A DNA stretch of 64,000 nucleotides from Candidatus Latescibacterota bacterium (GTDB lineage Bacteria; Latescibacterota; UBA2968; UBA8231): positions 1,216,001-1,280,000 of the forward strand of contig CBDAOB010000004.1 of NCBI GenBank assembly GCA_965197905.1. Direction: 5' to 3'. This document shows positions 15,237 to 19,488 of this stretch, piece by piece; the first letter of the stretch is position 1, and each line of letters starts with the position of its first letter. Below the pieces are notes generated by a model. The model was not told the origin of the DNA. It did not search any database and saw nothing but the letters and a program-made list of their open reading frames with translations. The translations under genes were made by a program, and so were the position numbers.

Positions 15237-16625
15237 TCAGGATTCCTTCAACGCCGCCACCAAATCCATGATTGCCTCCTTGCCACTGCCGAAGAACATC
15301 AAGGTGTTGTCGGCTGCAAAGAGTGGATTCGGTACGCCGGCAAATCCGGGACTCAAGCTGCGTTTTATCACCACAACGGTGCGCGCTTTGTCTACGTCGA
15401 GAATGGGCATGCCGGCGATCGGACCACCATCGTTTTCCCGCGCCACCGGGTTCACCACGTCGTTGGCGCCGATCACCAGCGCCAGGTCGGTTTGTGTGAA
15501 GGTGGAGTTGACCTCCCGCATCTCTTTCAGCTTCTCGTAGGGCACCTCAGCTTCAGCAAGGAGAACGTTCATATGTCCAGGCATGCGGCCGGCGACGGGA
15601 TGGATGGCGAAGTCCACTTCGGTGCCGCGGCTCTCCAGCAGATTGGCGAGGTCGCGGACGGCGTGCTGCGCCTGGGCAACCGCCATGCCGTATCCGGGGA
15701 CGACCACCACGCGGCGTGCCGTTTCGAACAACATGGCGACCTCCTCAGCAGAGGTCGATTTCACCTTGCCGGCGTAGATATCCCCTCCCGGCTCTCCACT
15801 CCCAACAGCACCCACGGCGGCAAAGAACACATTGCCGATGGAACGGTTCATCGCCCAGCACATGATTTGGGTCAGAATCAAACCCGACGCCCCGACCAGC
15901 GAACCAGCGATGATCAACACGTTGTTGTCGAGCACGAAACCGGTTGATGCAGCTGCCAGACCCGAACAAGAATTCAACAGGGCGATGACCACCGGCATGT
16001 CGGCTCCGCCAATGGGTGTTACAAGCAGAATTCCCAGGGCCGACGCGACGGCTGCCATGATCCAGAACCAGTCACTGTTTGCAGGTTCCAGGACCAGGAG
16101 CACCGCCGTTGCGATGCTGGCCACGGCGAGCAGTAGGTTCAAGACGTGGCGCCCGGGGAACACGTGAGGGTTTCCCGATATCAACTCCTGGAGCTTGGTA
16201 AAAGCGACCAAGCTACCCCAAAAGGTGATGGCGCCTATGATGCCCGACGCAGCGGTGGCTATAGAAACCTGGGTGGTGATCGTGGTGGCCGTAGAGTTAC
16301 TCTCCACCAAAGCGGCACCCGCAACCAGAACCGAAGCCACACCACCAAATCCGTTGAACAGTGCCACCAGTTGCGGCATCGCCGTCATTTGAATCTTGAG
16401 AGCGAACAGGGCACCGATAGCACCGCCGACGACCAGCCCAACAAGGATCAGCTCGAACTCGAGGATCCTCGAATCGACAACCGTGGCAACAACCGCCAGA
16501 AGCATTGCCAAGGCGCCGAGCAGATTCCCGCGCACCGCGGTCCGTGGATGGGTGAGTCCCTTGAGACCGAAGATGAAGAGTGCGGACGCCACCAGATACG
16601 CGGCGTTGATAAGTGTCGAGCTCAT
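15237..16625 (-). CDS. pntB: NAD(P) transhydrogenase beta subunit
   Basis: PGYGMAVAQAQ, HPVAGRMPGHMNVLLAEA, GANDVVNP. Confidence 0.97.
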   Translation of the reverse strand: MSSTLINAAYLVASALFIFGLKGLTHPRTAVRGNLLGALAMLLAVVATVVDSRILEFELILVGLVVGGAIGALFALKIQMTAMPQLVALFNGFGGVASVLVAGAALVESNSTATTITTQVSIATAASGIIGAITFWGSLVAFTKLQELISGNPHVFPGRHVLNLLLAVASIATAVLLVLEPANSDWFWIMAAVASALGILLVTPIGGADMPVVIALLNSCSGLAAASTGFVLDNNVLIIAGSLVGASGLILTQIMCWAMNRSIGNVFFAAVGAVGSGEPGGDIYAGKVKSTSAEEVAMLFETARRVVVVPGYGMAVAQAQHAVRDLANLLESRGTEVDFAIHPVAGRMPGHMNVLLAEAEVPYEKLKEMREVNSTFTQTDLALVIGANDVVNPVARENDGGPIAGMPILDVDKARTVVVIKRSLSPGFAGVPNPLFAADNTLMFFGSGKEAIMDLVAALKES

Positions 16626-16630
16626 GCCGT

Positions 16631-16915
16631 TTAGTTTCGCCTCTTGAACATGCCCAGCATTCGATGGGTGACCAGAAACCCGCCAACCACGTTCACGGTC
16701 GCGAATATGACAGCGGCGAGACCGAGCCAGGTGGTGAGCTCGGGCCGGTCGACCCCGGCGGCCAGGAGCGCACCTATCAGTGTGATACCGGAGATGGCAT
16801 TGGAGCCGGACATGAGGGGCGTGTGCAGGGTGGGCGGAATCTTGGTTATCACCTCGAAGCCCACGAATACGGCGAGGATGAAAATCGTCAATGTCGTCAC
16901 GAAGGTTTCCATCAT
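16631..16915 (-). CDS. pntAB: NAD(P) transhydrogenase alpha subunit part 2
   Basis: LHTPLMSGSNAISG, NVVGGFLVTHRMLGMF. Confidence 0.95.
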   Translation of the reverse strand: MMETFVTTLTIFILAVFVGFEVITKIPPTLHTPLMSGSNAISGITLIGALLAAGVDRPELTTWLGLAAVIFATVNVVGGFLVTHRMLGMFKRRN

Positions 16916-16925
16916 TCCTCCTCTG

Positions 16926-18065
16926 CTAACTGTGTATCAGTGGATGGACGATCTTGCCACCGCGCGCAACAAGAGTTCCTGATGTTATCTCATCCTCCTC
17001 ATCGAGGGTCAGCTCTCCCTCCCTCAATAGATGCTGCACGAACGTGGATAGATTGTGGGCAAACATCTGGCTCGCGTGCTTGGGAATGGTAGAAGGCAGA
17101 TTGGTGGGACCCAGGACGATGACACCGTCGTGTTGAATCCGTTCATCAGGTCGGGTCGATTCGCAATTCCCCCCGCGCTCGGCTGCCAGGTCAACGACGA
17201 CCGATCCGGGAGCCATGCGGCTCACGGTTTCGGCCGTGATTAACAGCGGCGCCGGCGTGCCCGGAACAGCGGCGGTGGTAATCACCACATCGCTCTCTGC
17301 CACTACCTCACCCAGGGCTGCCCGTTGGCGCTGGTAAAACCCCTCGTCTTGCGCCACGGCGTATCCCCCGGCGTCCTCGCTGTCGGCGGCGTCGAGGCCG
17401 AGGTCCACGAAGCGAGCACCGAGACTCTCCACCTGTTCCCTCACTGCGGGCCGTAGATCGTAGGCTTGGACAACCGCGCCGAGACGGCGAGAGGTGGCGA
17501 TCGCCTGAAGTCCGGCAACACCCGCCCCCACCACTAGGACCTTGGCGGGGGTCAGCGTGCCCGCGGCCGTCATCATCAACGGGAAGATGCGCGGCAATTC
17601 CGTGGCAGCCATAAGCACCGCCTTGTACCCGGCCAGAGTTGCCATGGCCGATAGCACATCCATGCTCTGTGCCCGGGTGATGCGCGGCATGAGTTCCAAT
17701 GCCAGAAGGGTGACTCCGGTTTCCGCGAGCTCCCGAATCTCCCTCACGGCGGAGAGCGGTTCGCACATGCCGATCACCACCTGTTCGGCGCGCATGTGTT
17801 GCAGATCCTGGCGTCCGGCATCCGGATTGGCGCCGTAGGTCCGCACCTGCAGAATCATATCAGCTTGCGCGAAGAGTTCCGTTCGGGAAGCGGCCAGCGA
17901 CGCACCCTTTTGCTGGTACGCTTCGTTTGGAAACCCGGCCCGCAGACCGGCATCTGCCTCCACCATAGCATCTATCCCGGCCTCGGATAGGGAAGGCAGT
18001 GAGTCGGGTATGAGAGCTACTCGGAGTTCTCCGGAATAGGTCTCGGCGGGAATACCTGCGATCAT
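16926..18065 (-). CDS. pntAA: NAD(P) transhydrogenase alpha subunit part 1
   Basis: PRITRAQSMDVLS, MMTAAGT, GAGVAGLQA, DLAAERGGNCE. Confidence 0.95.
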   Translation of the reverse strand: MIAGIPAETYSGELRVALIPDSLPSLSEAGIDAMVEADAGLRAGFPNEAYQQKGASLAASRTELFAQADMILQVRTYGANPDAGRQDLQHMRAEQVVIGMCEPLSAVREIRELAETGVTLLALELMPRITRAQSMDVLSAMATLAGYKAVLMAATELPRIFPLMMTAAGTLTPAKVLVVGAGVAGLQAIATSRRLGAVVQAYDLRPAVREQVESLGARFVDLGLDAADSEDAGGYAVAQDEGFYQRQRAALGEVVAESDVVITTAAVPGTPAPLLITAETVSRMAPGSVVVDLAAERGGNCESTRPDERIQHDGVIVLGPTNLPSTIPKHASQMFAHNLSTFVQHLLREGELTLDEEDEITSGTLVARGGKIVHPLIHS

Positions 18066-18180
18066 CTAATTTTGGTCTTGTAGGAGTACGGTTAGGCGGA
18101 AACAACCAAGCTGGATAAGATAGGTAATGGTTTGCGAGTGACCACCCCGTAACGTGGCAGAGGTGAAACTGCCGGTGCAC

Positions 18181-18207
18181 AAAAAAACCGCCACATCGCT
18201 GAGCGGT
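18181..18207 (-). terminator. Second (weaker) intrinsic terminator
   Basis: ACCGC/GCGGT stem followed by a U-tract on the minus strand. Confidence 0.5.
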
Positions 18208-18231
18208 CGAAAGGAATAAACATTGAGGCAC

Positions 18232-18276
18232 AAAAAAACGGCTGTGACGGGAACGCTCTAGAATCCGTCACAGCCG
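18232..18276 (-). terminator. Intrinsic terminator
   Basis: Perfect 12-bp stem CGGCTGTGACGG/CCGTCACAGCCG followed by T7 on the minus strand. Confidence 0.85.
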
Positions 18277-18520
18277 CAGGCAGTTGTCCGGCGGCATTGT
18301 TCCCTCCTCTTTGGGGTGCCTGTAACGGTCTATCAACCCACGTCCGCGGCCCTGTGTTACTCGGTAACAACCATTGCCTGCGCCATTCACCTCGTGCGGG
18401 ATGTGCATCCCAGGTCAGGTGAACTGCCTGACATCTACTTACGGGTCCAATGTCACGCAGGCTACGGTTGAACGGACCCTTTCGGACGGCGACCGTTCGC
18501 GTGATAGCTTTGCGGCTACA
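18232..18520 (-). ncRNA. Candidate structured non-coding RNA or cis-regulatory leader (family not identified)
   Basis: Promoter upstream, terminator downstream, no substantial ORF, and about ten perfect 6-9 bp complementary pairs, two of them crossing (see findings). Confidence 0.7.
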
Positions 18521-18525
18521 TGTTT

Positions 18526-18554
18526 ATTCTAGCGGGTTGACCGGCAAGAGTCAA
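18526..18554 (-). promoter_or_regulatory. Sigma70-type promoter
   Basis: TTGACT (18554-18549), 17-nt spacer, TAGAAT (18531-18526). Confidence 0.75.
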
Positions 18555-18636
18555 GAAAATAATCATCGATTTTCGGAAAACGAGTGAGCCGCTTCGCCCT
18601 TGATCGTCGGGATTGTGCACAGCGGTGCTGATCTAC

Positions 18637-19488
18637 TCATCCGGCGATCTCGAGGTTCGCCATTTCGTCGCAGCGGGCAGGATCCCTGAGCTTGCTGAGC
18701 GCCCGCTCTTTGAGCTGGCGCACGCGCTCGCGAGTGAGGTCTAGCGAAACGCCGATCTGCTCGAGCGTCATCGGCTCCTCTCCGTTCAGACCGTAGTAGG
18801 AGCTGATGATGTAACGCTCGCGATTGTCCAGACAAAACAGCGTGGATTCTATCTGTGTGCGGACCTCTACGGTCGCAACACCGGCGTCGGGAGCTGCTTG
18901 CGTCTCATCTACGAGCACGTCCATCAGGCTGCGATCGTCGTCCGCTTCGAAGATTTCGTCGAGCGAACAAACATCCCGACCCCGGTGAATCGTATCCATC
19001 ACATCCGCGGCCGACATATTCAGTTCCGCCGCAACCGCTTCGATATCGGGCGCGCCTTCTTGCCCCTGTCCCAATCGGTTGGACACCTTGGCGATCTCGT
19101 TGAGCAGGGATATCCGATTGGTCGGCAAACGTACTGTGCGCGACTGTTCGGCCAGGGTCTGGAGTATGGACTGGCGAATCCACCAAACGGCGTAGGAGAT
19201 GAATTTGAACCCCCTCGTCCCGTCGAACCGATCGGCGGCGGTCAGGAGACCGAGGTTGCCGGCACTTATGAGTTCGGGAAAGCTGAGACCTCTGCCCTGA
19301 TACCCTTTTGCCACGTCGACGACAAAACGCAGATTGGCGTTGACCAGCTCATCGCGCGCCGCGCCATCCCCCCTTTGGATTTTGGCGGAGAGCTCTACCT
19401 CGCGCTCCCGCGTAAGCGGTTTGGAATCGACGATATCATCGAAATATAGCCTGAGGGAATCCGCGTCGTTCTTTGAATGCTCTACCAA
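18637..19488 (-). CDS. RNA polymerase sigma factor, RpoD/RpoS-like without region 1.1
   Basis: ANLRFVVDVAK, GFKFISYAVWWIRQSI, region 4 TLEQIG...LTRERVRQLKERAL. Confidence 0.92.
   Translation of the reverse strand: MVEHSKNDADSLRLYFDDIVDSKPLTREREVELSAKIQRGDGAARDELVNANLRFVVDVAKGYQGRGLSFPELISAGNLGLLTAADRFDGTRGFKFISYAVWWIRQSILQTLAEQSRTVRLPTNRISLLNEIAKVSNRLGQGQEGAPDIEAVAAELNMSAADVMDTIHRGRDVCSLDEIFEADDDRSLMDVLVDETQAAPDAGVATVEVRTQIESTLFCLDNRERYIISSYYGLNGEEPMTLEQIGVSLDLTRERVRQLKERALSKLRDPARCDEMANLEIAG

What the first reader, a model, noticed from the sequence alone, without database searches (positions are those of the whole stretch)
18232..18554. Unrecognised ~290-nt double-pseudoknotted RNA with its own promoter, upstream of the transhydrogenase operon
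Seen: a TTGACT-N17-TAGAAT promoter points into a minus-strand region with no substantial ORF that is packed with perfect complementary pairs. Nested pairs: AACGGUC/GACCGUU (18497-91/18330-24), GCCUGCG/CGCAGGC (18462-56/18382-76), UGACAU/AUGUCA, UUCACCU/AGGUGAA, GGGAUG/CAUCCC, UGUUAC/GUAACA. Crossing pairs: GGGUCC (18479-74) with GGACCC (18448-43) in a hairpin loop, and CGUCCG/CGGACG interleaved with UCAACC/GGUUGA. It ends in a 12-bp terminator. I could not match it to tmRNA, RNase P, SRP, 6S or common riboswitches. Short words (GAAAG, CGUAAG, GUGGG...AGACC) loosely recall the raiA motif RNA, from memory only. Inference: a large structured ncRNA, ribozyme-like element or new riboswitch. Its position before pntAA-AB-B raises the possibility of pyridine-nucleotide sensing, although it may be a stand-alone RNA beside the sigma factor gene.
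Basis: partly seen in the sequence, partly recalled or inferred. Interest (0 to 1): 0.85.

Follow-up and report, generated by a model that had tools for sequence, protein, structure and literature searches.

The report
Structured RNA with Met-Pro-Pro mini-ORF
This is a real, separately transcribed, folded RNA of about 290 bases from an uncatalogued family in uncultured Latescibacterota; it always carries a tiny reading frame starting Met-Pro-Pro that runs into a hairpin, so it looks like a sensor of ribosome performance and not a switch for the neighbouring transhydrogenase genes.

Summary
The promoter, the 12-bp terminator and most nested helices are real. Rfam 15 has no match. The core, about 175 nt, is conserved with strong covariation in 22 members: 92.3% of cells paired against 78.7% in shuffles, and 26 of 33 pairs changed on both sides. 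The two proposed pseudoknots are not supported.

A GGAGG ribosome site is followed by a 9-codon ORF, MPPDNCLRL, at window 18297-18268. Its last codons and stop form the 5' arm of the terminator. Of 14 homologues found by structure alone, 13 have an SD-preceded ORF starting Met-Pro-Pro. Pro codons vary synonymously, and start codons vary among ATG, GTG and TTG.

The unit is single-copy here. It was found in 44 of 151 genomes of the phylum, all in one class, including 27 of 30 genomes of one family. Neighbouring genes vary and are often convergent, so it is not a pnt or NAD(P) riboswitch. Four RNA libraries each hold a 228-248-nt contig identical to it.

My best reading is a free-standing leader-peptide attenuator that reports Pro-Pro translation (EF-P or prolyl-tRNA). 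The mechanism is inferred. This scan has noted the same family before in other genomes.

The parts
18526..18554 (-). Sigma-70-type promoter: -35 TTGACT (18554-18549), 17-nt spacer, -10 TAGAAT (18531-18526). The predicted start is near 18517-18520.
   Evidence: 10 of 12 matches. Comparable TTGACA-17-TAnnnT promoters were seen by eye upstream of homologues. The 5' ends of the RNA contigs lie at 18506-18512.
18323..18498 (-). Conserved structured domain (the match to covariance model R1). P1 18496-18491 with 18330-18325; P2 18488-18483 with 18346-18341; P3 18478-18474 with 18352-18348; P4 18462-18456 with 18382-18376; P5 18452-18449 with 18387-18384; P7 18411-18407 with 18402-18398.
   Evidence: 163 bits, E 1.2e-37; covariation; the minimum-energy fold reproduces P1-P4 and P7.
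18331..18340 (-). Conserved unpaired 10-nt loop between P2 and P1 on the 3' strand (UGGGUUGAUA here; family consensus about UGAGUUGAYRG). Truncated members also keep it.
   Evidence: Alignments. Short forms L023, L026 and L027 keep P1, this loop, the SD and the ORF.
18303..18307 (-). Shine-Dalgarno GGAGG, 5 nt before the start codon and unpaired in the predicted folds.
   Evidence: G of the SD is invariant or nearly so across 27 sequences.
18268..18297 (-). Mini-ORF ATG CCG CCG GAC AAC TGC CTG CGG CTG TGA = MPPDNCLRL*. Codons 8-9 and the stop lie in the 5' arm of the terminator.
   Evidence: 13 of 14 structure-found homologues start Met-Pro-Pro. Pro codons are CCG, CCA or CCT. Start codons are ATG, GTG or TTG.
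18232..18277 (-). Intrinsic terminator: stem 18277-18265 with 18250-18238 (12 pairs plus one G-U), 14-nt loop, T7 run 18238-18232. The stem begins 21-22 nt after the A of the AUG.
   Evidence: Folds. In homologues the 3' arm varies while the 5' arm (coding) stays fixed.
18181..18207 (-). Second, weak terminator-like hairpin (ACCGC...GCGGU) with a T7 run, between the RNA and pntAA.
   Evidence: Read. It is identical in the sister genome. Similar second hairpin-T runs were seen by eye in L008, L013 and L026. Not tested further.
15237..18065 (-). Context: pntAA (16926-18065), pntAB (16631-16915) and pntB (15237-16625), downstream on the same strand.
   Evidence: Pfam: AlaDh_PNT_N/C, PNTB_4TM and PNTB.
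18637..19488 (-). Context: RpoD-family sigma factor gene upstream on the same strand.
   Evidence: Pfam Sigma70 regions 1.2, 2, 3 and 4.

Best explanation
Window 18554-18232 (minus strand) is a free-standing gene for an RNA of about 290 nt from an uncatalogued family confined, as far as searched, to one class of Latescibacterota.

Shown: a near-consensus promoter; a 175-nt domain in which the 5' and 3' ends pair through three stacked helices (P1-P3) closing further helices (P4, P5, P7); an open GGAGG ribosome site 19-25 nt after P1; a short ORF that begins Met-Pro-Pro; and a stable hairpin that starts 15-22 nt after the AUG. Here that hairpin is the intrinsic terminator, with the stop codon inside its 5' arm.

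Inferred mechanism: the single-stranded gap of about 40-45 nt between P1 and the hairpin holds one ribosome. Met-Pro-Pro makes the ribosome's departure from the start slow and dependent on EF-P and prolyl-tRNA. A ribosome held at codons 2-3 ends at the foot of the hairpin, so the terminator forms and the short, stable RNA is released. A ribosome that clears Pro-Pro quickly enters the 5' arm and stop codon, melts or prevents the terminator, and lets RNA polymerase read on. In this genome it would read towards a second weak terminator and then pntAA-AB-B.

On this reading the unit is a ribosome-mediated attenuator that reports translation capacity at Pro-Pro. The role of the large upstream domain is not known; it may bind a ligand, a protein or the ribosome platform.
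For: The RNA is real and structured. Alifold on 8 members gave 48 pairs, 18 of them with compensatory change. On 22 members, 92.3% of cells were paired against 78.7 +/- 0.9% in shuffles (0 of 500 reached it). 26 of 33 pairs changed on both sides (14.8 in shuffles). The covariation score was 0.428 against 0.205, and 0.05-0.14 with slid partners.

There is no Rfam match. The element is single-copy in its genome, and it is the only SD-ATG-Pro-Pro short ORF with a terminator among 11 such short ORFs genome-wide.

Distribution: model R1 hit 16 of 151 phylum genomes. Model R2 hit 44 of 151: f2 27/30, f1 11/63, f4 4/19, f3 1/2, and 0/36 in ten other families.

Translation of the ORF is supported as follows. 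13 of 14 loci found by the structure-only model have SD + ATG CCN CCN. Codons 2-3 use CCG, CCA and CCT. Start codons are ATG, GTG (L105, L110) and TTG (L103). The terminator's 5' (coding) arm is fixed while its 3' arm varies through G-U pairs. CCC was not seen, which fits the reported avoidance of frameshift-prone CCC/CCU in Pro-Pro motifs (PMC8129111, passages read).

Geometry: P1 to AUG is 19-25 nt, the SD spacer is 5-8 nt, and the hairpin starts at nt 15-22 in nearly all 22 members.

Precedents: a polyproline stall placed before the pyrL terminator raised termination in an efp mutant (PMC5021804, passages). mgtP in the Salmonella mgtCBR leader has consecutive Pro codons at the base of a stem-loop and responds to proline limitation (PMC3641672, passages).

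RNA: 4 of 4 RNA libraries laid (one study) each hold one contig of 228-248 nt with 0 differences, lying wholly within 18264-18512.
Against: No downstream gene is constant, and in at least seven distinct loci the next gene is convergent (L013, L037, L043-L045, L048, L050, L053 and L054). A classical attenuator therefore has nothing consistent to control.

I found no conserved antiterminator or SD-sequestering pairing; this was checked by eye only, and the candidate pairings did not covary.

A 9-codon ORF leaves very little time for coupling unless RNA polymerase pauses.

In family f2 the ORF is 18 codons and spans a first hairpin without a U-run, and the terminator lies about 30 nt beyond the stop. 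The simple 'stop codon in the terminator arm' picture does not hold throughout.

One structure-found copy (L048) and a paralogue type in genus g25 (L107, L111) lack Pro-Pro.

The attenuator model gives no job to the 175-nt domain. Contigs cannot show RNA ends, strand or level, and one study is not independent replication. The alignment used for covariation was fitted to the model's structure.
Confidence: 0.42

Rival explanations
1. It is a riboswitch-like sensor. The 175-nt domain binds an unknown small molecule, ion or protein and sets how well the adjacent mini-ORF is translated. The Met-Pro-Pro frame and hairpin are only the expression platform that turns this into termination or read-through.
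For: The domain has the size, helix covariation and conserved unpaired nucleotides (a GAAAR bulge and a 10-nt loop) typical of aptamers. It sits at a fixed 19-25 nt before the AUG.
Against: The downstream genes belong to no single pathway. The SD is unpaired in the predicted folds, and I saw no conserved alternative pairing (by eye). Truncated members (L023, L026, L027, L109) lose most or all of the domain yet keep the SD, the Met-Pro-Pro ORF and the hairpin.
Confidence: 0.2
2. It is a trans-acting or protein-sequestering small RNA, possibly this class's divergent 6S-like RNA. The domain is the active part, and the mini-ORF only modulates the RNA's stability or availability, making it a dual-function sRNA.
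For: It has its own strong promoter and terminator, is single-copy, and has variable neighbours. It is nearly universal in one family (27/30). RNA-library contigs cover just this unit. Its overall shape is rod-like, with paired ends, and the domain is about 175 nt. RF00013 (6S) gave no hit in 0/114 genomes of families f1-f4, whereas sub-threshold full-length hits occur in f12 (5/6) and f11 (1/1) of the same phylum.
Against: There is no 6S hit even at E <= 10 on this stretch. No large central bubble is evident. The conserved nucleotides lie in the closing stem, not in a central loop. Truncated members keep only P1, the loop and the ORF module, which a promoter-mimic could not tolerate. RF00013 also misses many control genomes (it rings in 4-5 of 14), so its silence says little. 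I did not search for mRNA targets.
Confidence: 0.18
3. One reading: an NAD(H)/NADP(H)-sensing riboswitch or ribozyme-like element that controls pntAA-AB-B in cis.
For: In the window's genus (3 genomes) the RNA lies directly upstream of pntAA on the same strand. No consensus promoter was found between the terminator and pntAA. Several downstream genes elsewhere are NAD- or FAD-dependent enzymes.
Against: pnt follows the RNA only in this genus. Downstream genes vary and are often convergent. Two terminators separate the RNA from pntAA. Such oxidoreductases recur in these loci, so adjacency is weak evidence.
Confidence: 0.05
4. The mini-ORF encodes a functional 9-residue peptide and the RNA domain is simply its 5' UTR.
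For: A strong SD and a conserved start.
Against: Only Met-Pro-Pro is conserved. Length runs from 6 to 28 codons and the rest of the sequence varies freely or follows the hairpin.
Confidence: 0.03

Closest known systems
Salmonella mgtCBR leader with the proline-codon ORF mgtP (and the mgtA leader ORF mgtL)
   Same: A long structured leader RNA; a short SD-preceded ORF with consecutive Pro codons placed at the base of a stem-loop; the ribosome's position on the ORF decides which structure forms; the peptide itself is not the effector (PMC3641672, passages read).
   Different: mgtP is 17 codons with the prolines at positions 10-12 and always precedes mgtC. Here the prolines are codons 2-3, the unit has no constant downstream gene, no alternative stem-loop pair was found, and the upstream domain is unrelated (no Rfam hit).
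pyrBI (pyrL) and pyrE-type attenuators: a ribosome following RNA polymerase suppresses an intrinsic terminator
   Same: The leader ORF runs into the terminator, so a translating ribosome prevents the hairpin. A polyproline stall upstream raises termination when EF-P is missing (PMC5021804, passages). Termination is repressed when a terminator lies a few bp after a stop codon (PMC4824070, abstract in the listing).
   Different: Those leaders sense UTP-dependent polymerase pausing and precede pyrimidine genes. They have no 175-nt structured domain and no conserved Met-Pro-Pro start.
Orphan large structured bacterial RNAs in Rfam (raiA, HEARO, OLE and similar) and riboswitch aptamers
   Same: Size, own promoter and terminator, helices supported by covariation, conserved unpaired nucleotides.
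   Different: No match to any of the 4227 Rfam models. An obligatory translated mini-ORF is not part of those families.
6S RNA (RF00013)
   Same: Abundant, single-copy, free-standing, about 175-185 nt, with paired 5' and 3' ends.
   Different: No model hit. No central bubble is evident. It carries an SD and ORF. Truncated members exist.

Membership tests
Any Rfam 15 family (incl. raiA, 6S, tmRNA, RNase P, SRP, riboswitches) | Score at or above the family's gathering threshold with its covariance model | tested here: not met
   0 matches in the whole 64-kb window; at E <= 10 on 18000-18700, only mir-2 at 15.8 bits (cut-off 45.5), on the terminator hairpin.
6S RNA | Match to RF00013; a long irregular helix with a large central bubble | tested here: not met
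   no hit. In the folds no large central bubble is evident; the internal loops are small or asymmetric. RF00013 misses 9-10 of 14 control genomes, so this is not proof.
tmRNA | tRNA-like domain plus a tag frame without SD or start codon | tested here: not met
   A canonical tmRNA lies elsewhere in the genome (214.5 bits). This RNA has an SD and an AUG.
Ribosome-mediated leader-peptide attenuator | Short SD-preceded ORF in a leader, with evidence of translation | tested here: met
   The SD is invariant or nearly so. Met-Pro-Pro is present in 13 of 14 structure-found loci. Pro codons vary synonymously and ATG, GTG and TTG starts occur. Translation itself was not measured.
Ribosome-mediated leader-peptide attenuator | The ORF overlaps or abuts a terminator so that the ribosome's position governs the hairpin | tested here: met
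   The hairpin starts 15-22 nt after the AUG in nearly all 22 members. In the window the stop codon is in the 5' arm. In family f2 the first hairpin has no U-run and the terminator follows later.
Ribosome-mediated leader-peptide attenuator | Alternative antiterminator structure | tested here: inconclusive
   None found by eye. The candidate pairings did not covary. No systematic search was made.
Ribosome-mediated leader-peptide attenuator | A constant regulated operon downstream, functionally tied to the signal | tested here: not met
   the downstream genes are variable and often convergent.
Riboswitch | Conserved aptamer fold with covariation | tested here: met
Riboswitch | Association with genes of one pathway, and an expression platform with mutually exclusive pairing | tested here: not met
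   (contexts). The SD is open in the folds.
Riboswitch | Direct ligand binding | not testable with these tools
   Needs in-line probing, SHAPE or ITC.

The most novel reading that the evidence does not exclude
This is a free-standing 'ribosome-gauge' RNA. It parks one ribosome in a fixed slot between a conserved folded domain and a hairpin, uses Met-Pro-Pro to make release depend on EF-P or prolyl-tRNA, and gives an RNA-level output (its own 3' end, stability, or the activity of the folded domain) instead of controlling a particular operon. Earlier notes of this scan (unchecked here) describe other structured RNAs with Met-(x)-Pro-Pro mini-ORFs in other phyla. If those hold, this would be one instance of a widespread, undescribed class of translation-status sensors.
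Probability: 0.3. Interest if true: 0.88.

Novelty: new variant of a known kind. Interest (0 to 1): 0.72.

Why it matters
If the reading holds, this is a new, class-wide structured RNA family. Its defining feature is an obligatory coupling of an aptamer-sized fold to a Met-Pro-Pro mini-ORF and a hairpin, with no dedicated target gene.

It would be a natural reporter of Pro-Pro translation, the step that needs EF-P. That would make testable how uncultured bacteria monitor translation capacity. It would also add a design, a ribosome-sized slot between two structures, that is not among described attenuators or riboswitches.

It further shows that gene annotation of these genomes misses an RNA that is assembled in RNA libraries and present in nearly every genome of one family.

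For this window, it removes the suggestion of an NAD(P) riboswitch for the transhydrogenase.

Tried and rejected
1. One search used my pattern with one N too many and found nothing, not even in the window's genome. It was corrected; ignore.

2. Pseudoknot UCAACC/GGUUGA (J3/4 with the conserved loop). The best complementarity was no better than shuffles in most of 22 members. Rejected. By eye, the 3' part of J3/4 instead pairs with the 5' part of J4/3 as a nested extension of P4 (for the window; examples read's output). I did not count this formally.

3. Pseudoknot GGGUCC/GGACCC. The middle box did not follow the changes of the 5' strand in L035 and L039 (by eye). Rejected in favour of P3.

4. 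Pairing of the ORF start with the P1 or P2 5' strands, and of the terminator 5' arm with the 5' box. Checked by eye across members; no consistent covariation.

5. A general Met-Pro-Pro leader device in this genome. There are 11 SD-ATG-Pro-Pro short ORFs, and only this one has a terminator.

6. An operator in the promoter. The AT-rich palindrome in the window is absent from the sister genome.

7. The 46-codon in-frame extension (18408-18268). It is not conserved; for example, L039 has an in-frame stop just before the AUG.

8. Model R1 misses divergent and short forms (L008, L015, L023, L027-L029 and L034 score under 21 bits).

9. In the four RNA libraries no contig lay on the sigma gene, on the terminator loop and 3' arm, or on pntAA.

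10. Literature searches found no description of this RNA or of a Met-Pro-Pro leader. The three papers that hold both 'Latescibacter' and 'riboswitch' have unrelated titles and abstracts in the listing; I did not read them.

11. L108 and L112 look like false positives (inside high-GC coding sequence, or no Pro-Pro and no hairpin) and were dropped from all descriptions.

Full report
**What is there**

On the minus strand, a TTGACT-17-TAGAAT promoter lies at 18554-18526. It is followed by a region without a long ORF that folds better than shuffles: z = -2.33 for 306 nt and z = -3.08 for the 178-nt core. The region ends in a 12-13-bp hairpin with a T7 run at 18277-18232. The simple terminator scan listed nothing, because this loop is 14 nt and the scan allows 3-8. 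Upstream lies an RpoD-family sigma factor gene. Downstream lie pntAA, pntAB and pntB. Rfam 15 gives no match at gathering scores in the whole window. At E <= 10 the only hit is a chance mir-2 match on the terminator. The element is single-copy in its 6.69-Mb genome.

BLAST against 61 related genomes hit 9 of them. Outside the genus the conserved stretch was the 3' end. It consists of GGAGG, five or so bases, then ATG CCG CCG GAC AAC TGC CTG CGG CTG TGA (window 18297-18268, MPPDNCLRL*). The last codons and the stop form the 5' arm of the terminator.

A pattern built on this found 7 of 168 genomes of the phylum. It also found 7 stretches among one genome per species of all prokaryotes; their record titles read Latescibacterota or, for some, Gemmatimonadetes. 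It found 10 stretches in public metagenomes. All of these ORFs have nine codons, of the form MPP....R[L/P]*. In the terminator, the coding 5' arm is constant while the 3' arm varies through G-U pairs. That pattern is what a coding constraint predicts.

**The fold**

Eight full-length members gave an RNAalifold consensus of 48 pairs, 18 of them with compensatory changes. I set a structure of six helices:

- P1: ACGGUC/GACCGU
- P2: CGUCCG/CGGACG
- P3: GGUCC/GGGCC
- P4: GCCUGCG/CGCAGGC
- P5: CAUU/AAUG
- P7: GGGAU/AUCCC

I built covariance model R1 from it (173 positions, 33 pairs). R1 found 16 of 151 phylum genomes.

On the 22 credible matches aligned to the model:

- 92.3% of cells are standard pairs, against 78.7 +/- 0.9% in shuffles (0 of 500 reach it).
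- 26 of 33 pairs show changes on both sides, against 14.8 in shuffles.
- The covariation score is 0.428, against 0.205 in shuffles and 0.05-0.14 when partners are slid by 1-3 columns.
- P3 is paired in 100% of cells and P2 in 98.5%.

One caveat is that the alignment was fitted to the model.

The pseudoknot GGGUCC/GGACCC is displaced by P3. UCAACC/GGUUGA is no better than shuffles. The most conserved unpaired elements are a GAAAR bulge between P2 and P3 and a 10-nt loop (about UGAGUUGAYRG) between P2 and P1 on the 3' strand.

**The mini-ORF is part of the family**

R1 contains no ORF sequence. Even so, 13 of the 14 new loci it found carry, 19-25 nt after P1, a GGAGG site and an ORF beginning ATG CCN CCN. 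The exception is L048, one of two copies in its genome; the other copy, L056, has Pro-Pro.

ORF length ranges from 6 to 28 codons, and only Met-Pro-Pro is constant. Pro codons are CCG, CCA and CCT. Start codons include GTG (L105, L110) and TTG (L103). Synonymous change and start-codon exchange argue for translation, not for an RNA-level word. The absence of CCC fits published selection against frameshift-prone CCC/CCU in Pro-Pro motifs (PMC8129111, passages read).

The stable hairpin begins 15-22 nt after the A of the AUG in nearly all 22 members. Together with the fixed P1-to-AUG distance, this leaves a single-stranded slot of about 40-45 nt, roughly one ribosome footprint (the footprint size is my own knowledge).

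Truncated members keep P1, the loop, the SD, the Met-Pro-Pro ORF and the hairpin but lose most of the domain (L023, L026, L027). L109 keeps only promoter, short leader, ORF and hairpin. Genus g25 also has a paralogue type without Pro-Pro (L107, L111).

**Distribution**

A sequence-only model of P2' through codon 4 (R2) found 44 of 151 genomes:

- family f2: 27 of 30, including 20 of 20 in one genus
- family f1: 11 of 63
- family f4: 4 of 19
- family f3: 1 of 2
- ten other families of the phylum: 0 of 36

R2 contains the ATG CCN CC words, so Pro-Pro in its hits is not independent evidence.

Within the window's genome there are 11 SD-ATG-Pro-Pro short ORFs, and this is the only one with a terminator. 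It is therefore a unique locus and not a general device.

**Context**

Pfam on 56 neighbouring ORFs, together with the ORF tables, gave the following.

*Upstream, same strand:* ferritin in L033, L035, L038, L039, L043 and L044 (and by eye in several more); a sigma factor in the window's genus; TauE, a phosphoribosyltransferase or other genes elsewhere.

*Downstream, same strand:*
- pntAA, only in the window's genus (3 genomes)
- FAD_oxidored (L033)
- 2-Hacid_dh (L046)
- a CBS protein (L049, L055)
- a sigma factor (L056)
- a 284-residue protein with a Rossmann-like N-terminus (L023, L027, L034, L038; by eye, not run through Pfam)

*Downstream, convergent:*
- MR_MLE (L043 and L044 tested; L045 has an ORF of the same length and position, not run through Pfam)
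- a xylose-isomerase-like barrel (L037, and L013 by eye)
- a BFN-domain gene (L048)
- ORFs of no family (L050, L053, L054)

**RNA evidence**

Four RNA libraries of one study each hold a single contig of 228-248 nt, identical to the window, lying wholly within 18264-18512. That is from a few bases after the predicted start to the stop codon region. Contigs cannot give ends, strand or level, and DNA carry-over cannot be excluded, so this shows presence in RNA libraries and no more.

**Mechanism (inferred)**

The fixed geometry, the Met-Pro-Pro start and the hairpin at the ribosome's leading edge fit a ribosome-mediated attenuator. A ribosome delayed at codons 2-3 leaves the terminator intact. 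A ribosome that passes enters the 5' arm and stop codon and suppresses termination.

There are precedents. A polyproline stall before the pyrL terminator raised termination in an efp mutant (PMC5021804, passages). mgtP has consecutive Pro codons at the base of a stem-loop and responds to proline limitation (PMC3641672, passages). Terminators are repressed when placed a few bp behind a stop codon (PMC4824070, abstract in a listing).

Against this reading:

- There is no constant target gene.
- I found no antiterminator.
- In family f2 the ORF spans a first hairpin and the terminator lies about 30 nt beyond the stop.
- The large domain has no assigned role.

**Rivals**

The rivals are a ligand- or protein-sensing domain that gates the ORF, and a trans-acting or sequestering RNA.

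For the 6S idea, RF00013 gives sub-threshold full-length hits only in two other families of the phylum (6 of 7 genomes) and none in 114 genomes of the class that has this RNA. Those 6S-like RNAs have no similarity to this RNA and no ORF. The truncated members and the absence of an evident central bubble speak against 6S. A canonical tmRNA exists elsewhere in the genome.

**Novelty**

There is no Rfam family. Five full-text searches found no paper describing it.

This scan's own earlier notes describe the same family in other Latescibacterota genomes, and other structured RNAs with Met-(x)-Pro-Pro mini-ORFs in other phyla. They agree with my reading but are unchecked AI notes and do not count as independent support. 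I reached the reading before seeing them (see my statement).

**Verdict**

This is a real, conserved, new RNA family. The pnt/NAD(P) riboswitch idea is not supported. The function is inferred, not shown.

Noticed in passing
L015 (sister genome G002, second locus), about 1501-1619: A second, partial copy of only the 5' half of the RNA (query positions 15-129, 82% identical) has its own TTGACA promoter. It diverges after the ...CACCUGACC word and is followed by a cold-shock protein gene (MADRETGTVKWFN...). The window's genome has no such copy. It may be a recent duplication of the promoter and 5' module used as a csp leader.
   Followed up: partly
window 18555-18574 (-): A perfect AT-rich inverted repeat, GAAAAT-N8-ATTTTC, abuts the -35 box. 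It looks like an operator but is not conserved in the sister genome.
   Followed up: partly
window 18181-18207 (-): A second weak hairpin plus T7 run lies between the RNA's terminator and pntAA. Several homologues also show a second hairpin-T run, and family f2 has a two-hairpin arrangement with a second SD and a 4-6-codon ORF abutting the terminator.
   Followed up: partly
L033, L035, L038, L039, L043, L044 (upstream of the RNA): In family f1 a ferritin gene lies directly upstream on the same strand in at least six Pfam-tested loci. This may be a conserved neighbourhood or a functional link to iron. It is unexplained.
   Followed up: no
L106 (G119), L048 and L056 (G097), L103 and L104 (G059), L055 and L111 (G120): Some genomes hold two copies. 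In G119 they are in tandem, 244 nt apart, and the first has a frame-disrupted start (MHRPDT*). In genus g25 a second paralogue type has a different conserved leader (V-A-[HN]-L-N-D-x-[RK]-x-P-R) without Pro-Pro.
   Followed up: partly
L065-L070 (families f11 and f12 of the phylum): Typical 6S-like RNAs (own promoter, paired ends, T-run) score just under the RF00013 cut-off (22.7-43.2 bits against 46.4). They sit next to what looks like a tRNA gene on the opposite strand. No 6S was found for families f1-f4.
   Followed up: partly
window 18268-18408 (-): A 46-codon ATG ORF is in frame with the mini-ORF. It is not conserved in homologues (in-frame stops occur just before the AUG, e.g. in L039) and is probably spurious.
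   Followed up: yes
window 17900-18700; runs X1-X4: The RNA libraries that hold the sequence are labelled sponge metagenome, so this bacterium or a near-identical one occurs in samples with that label.
   Followed up: no
L008 (G001, same genus): This copy looks degenerate. It reads MSPDNCLPL*, has a weaker SD (AGGAAGG), shows poor P2/P3 complementarity by eye, and scores only 12.9 bits with R1.
   Followed up: partly
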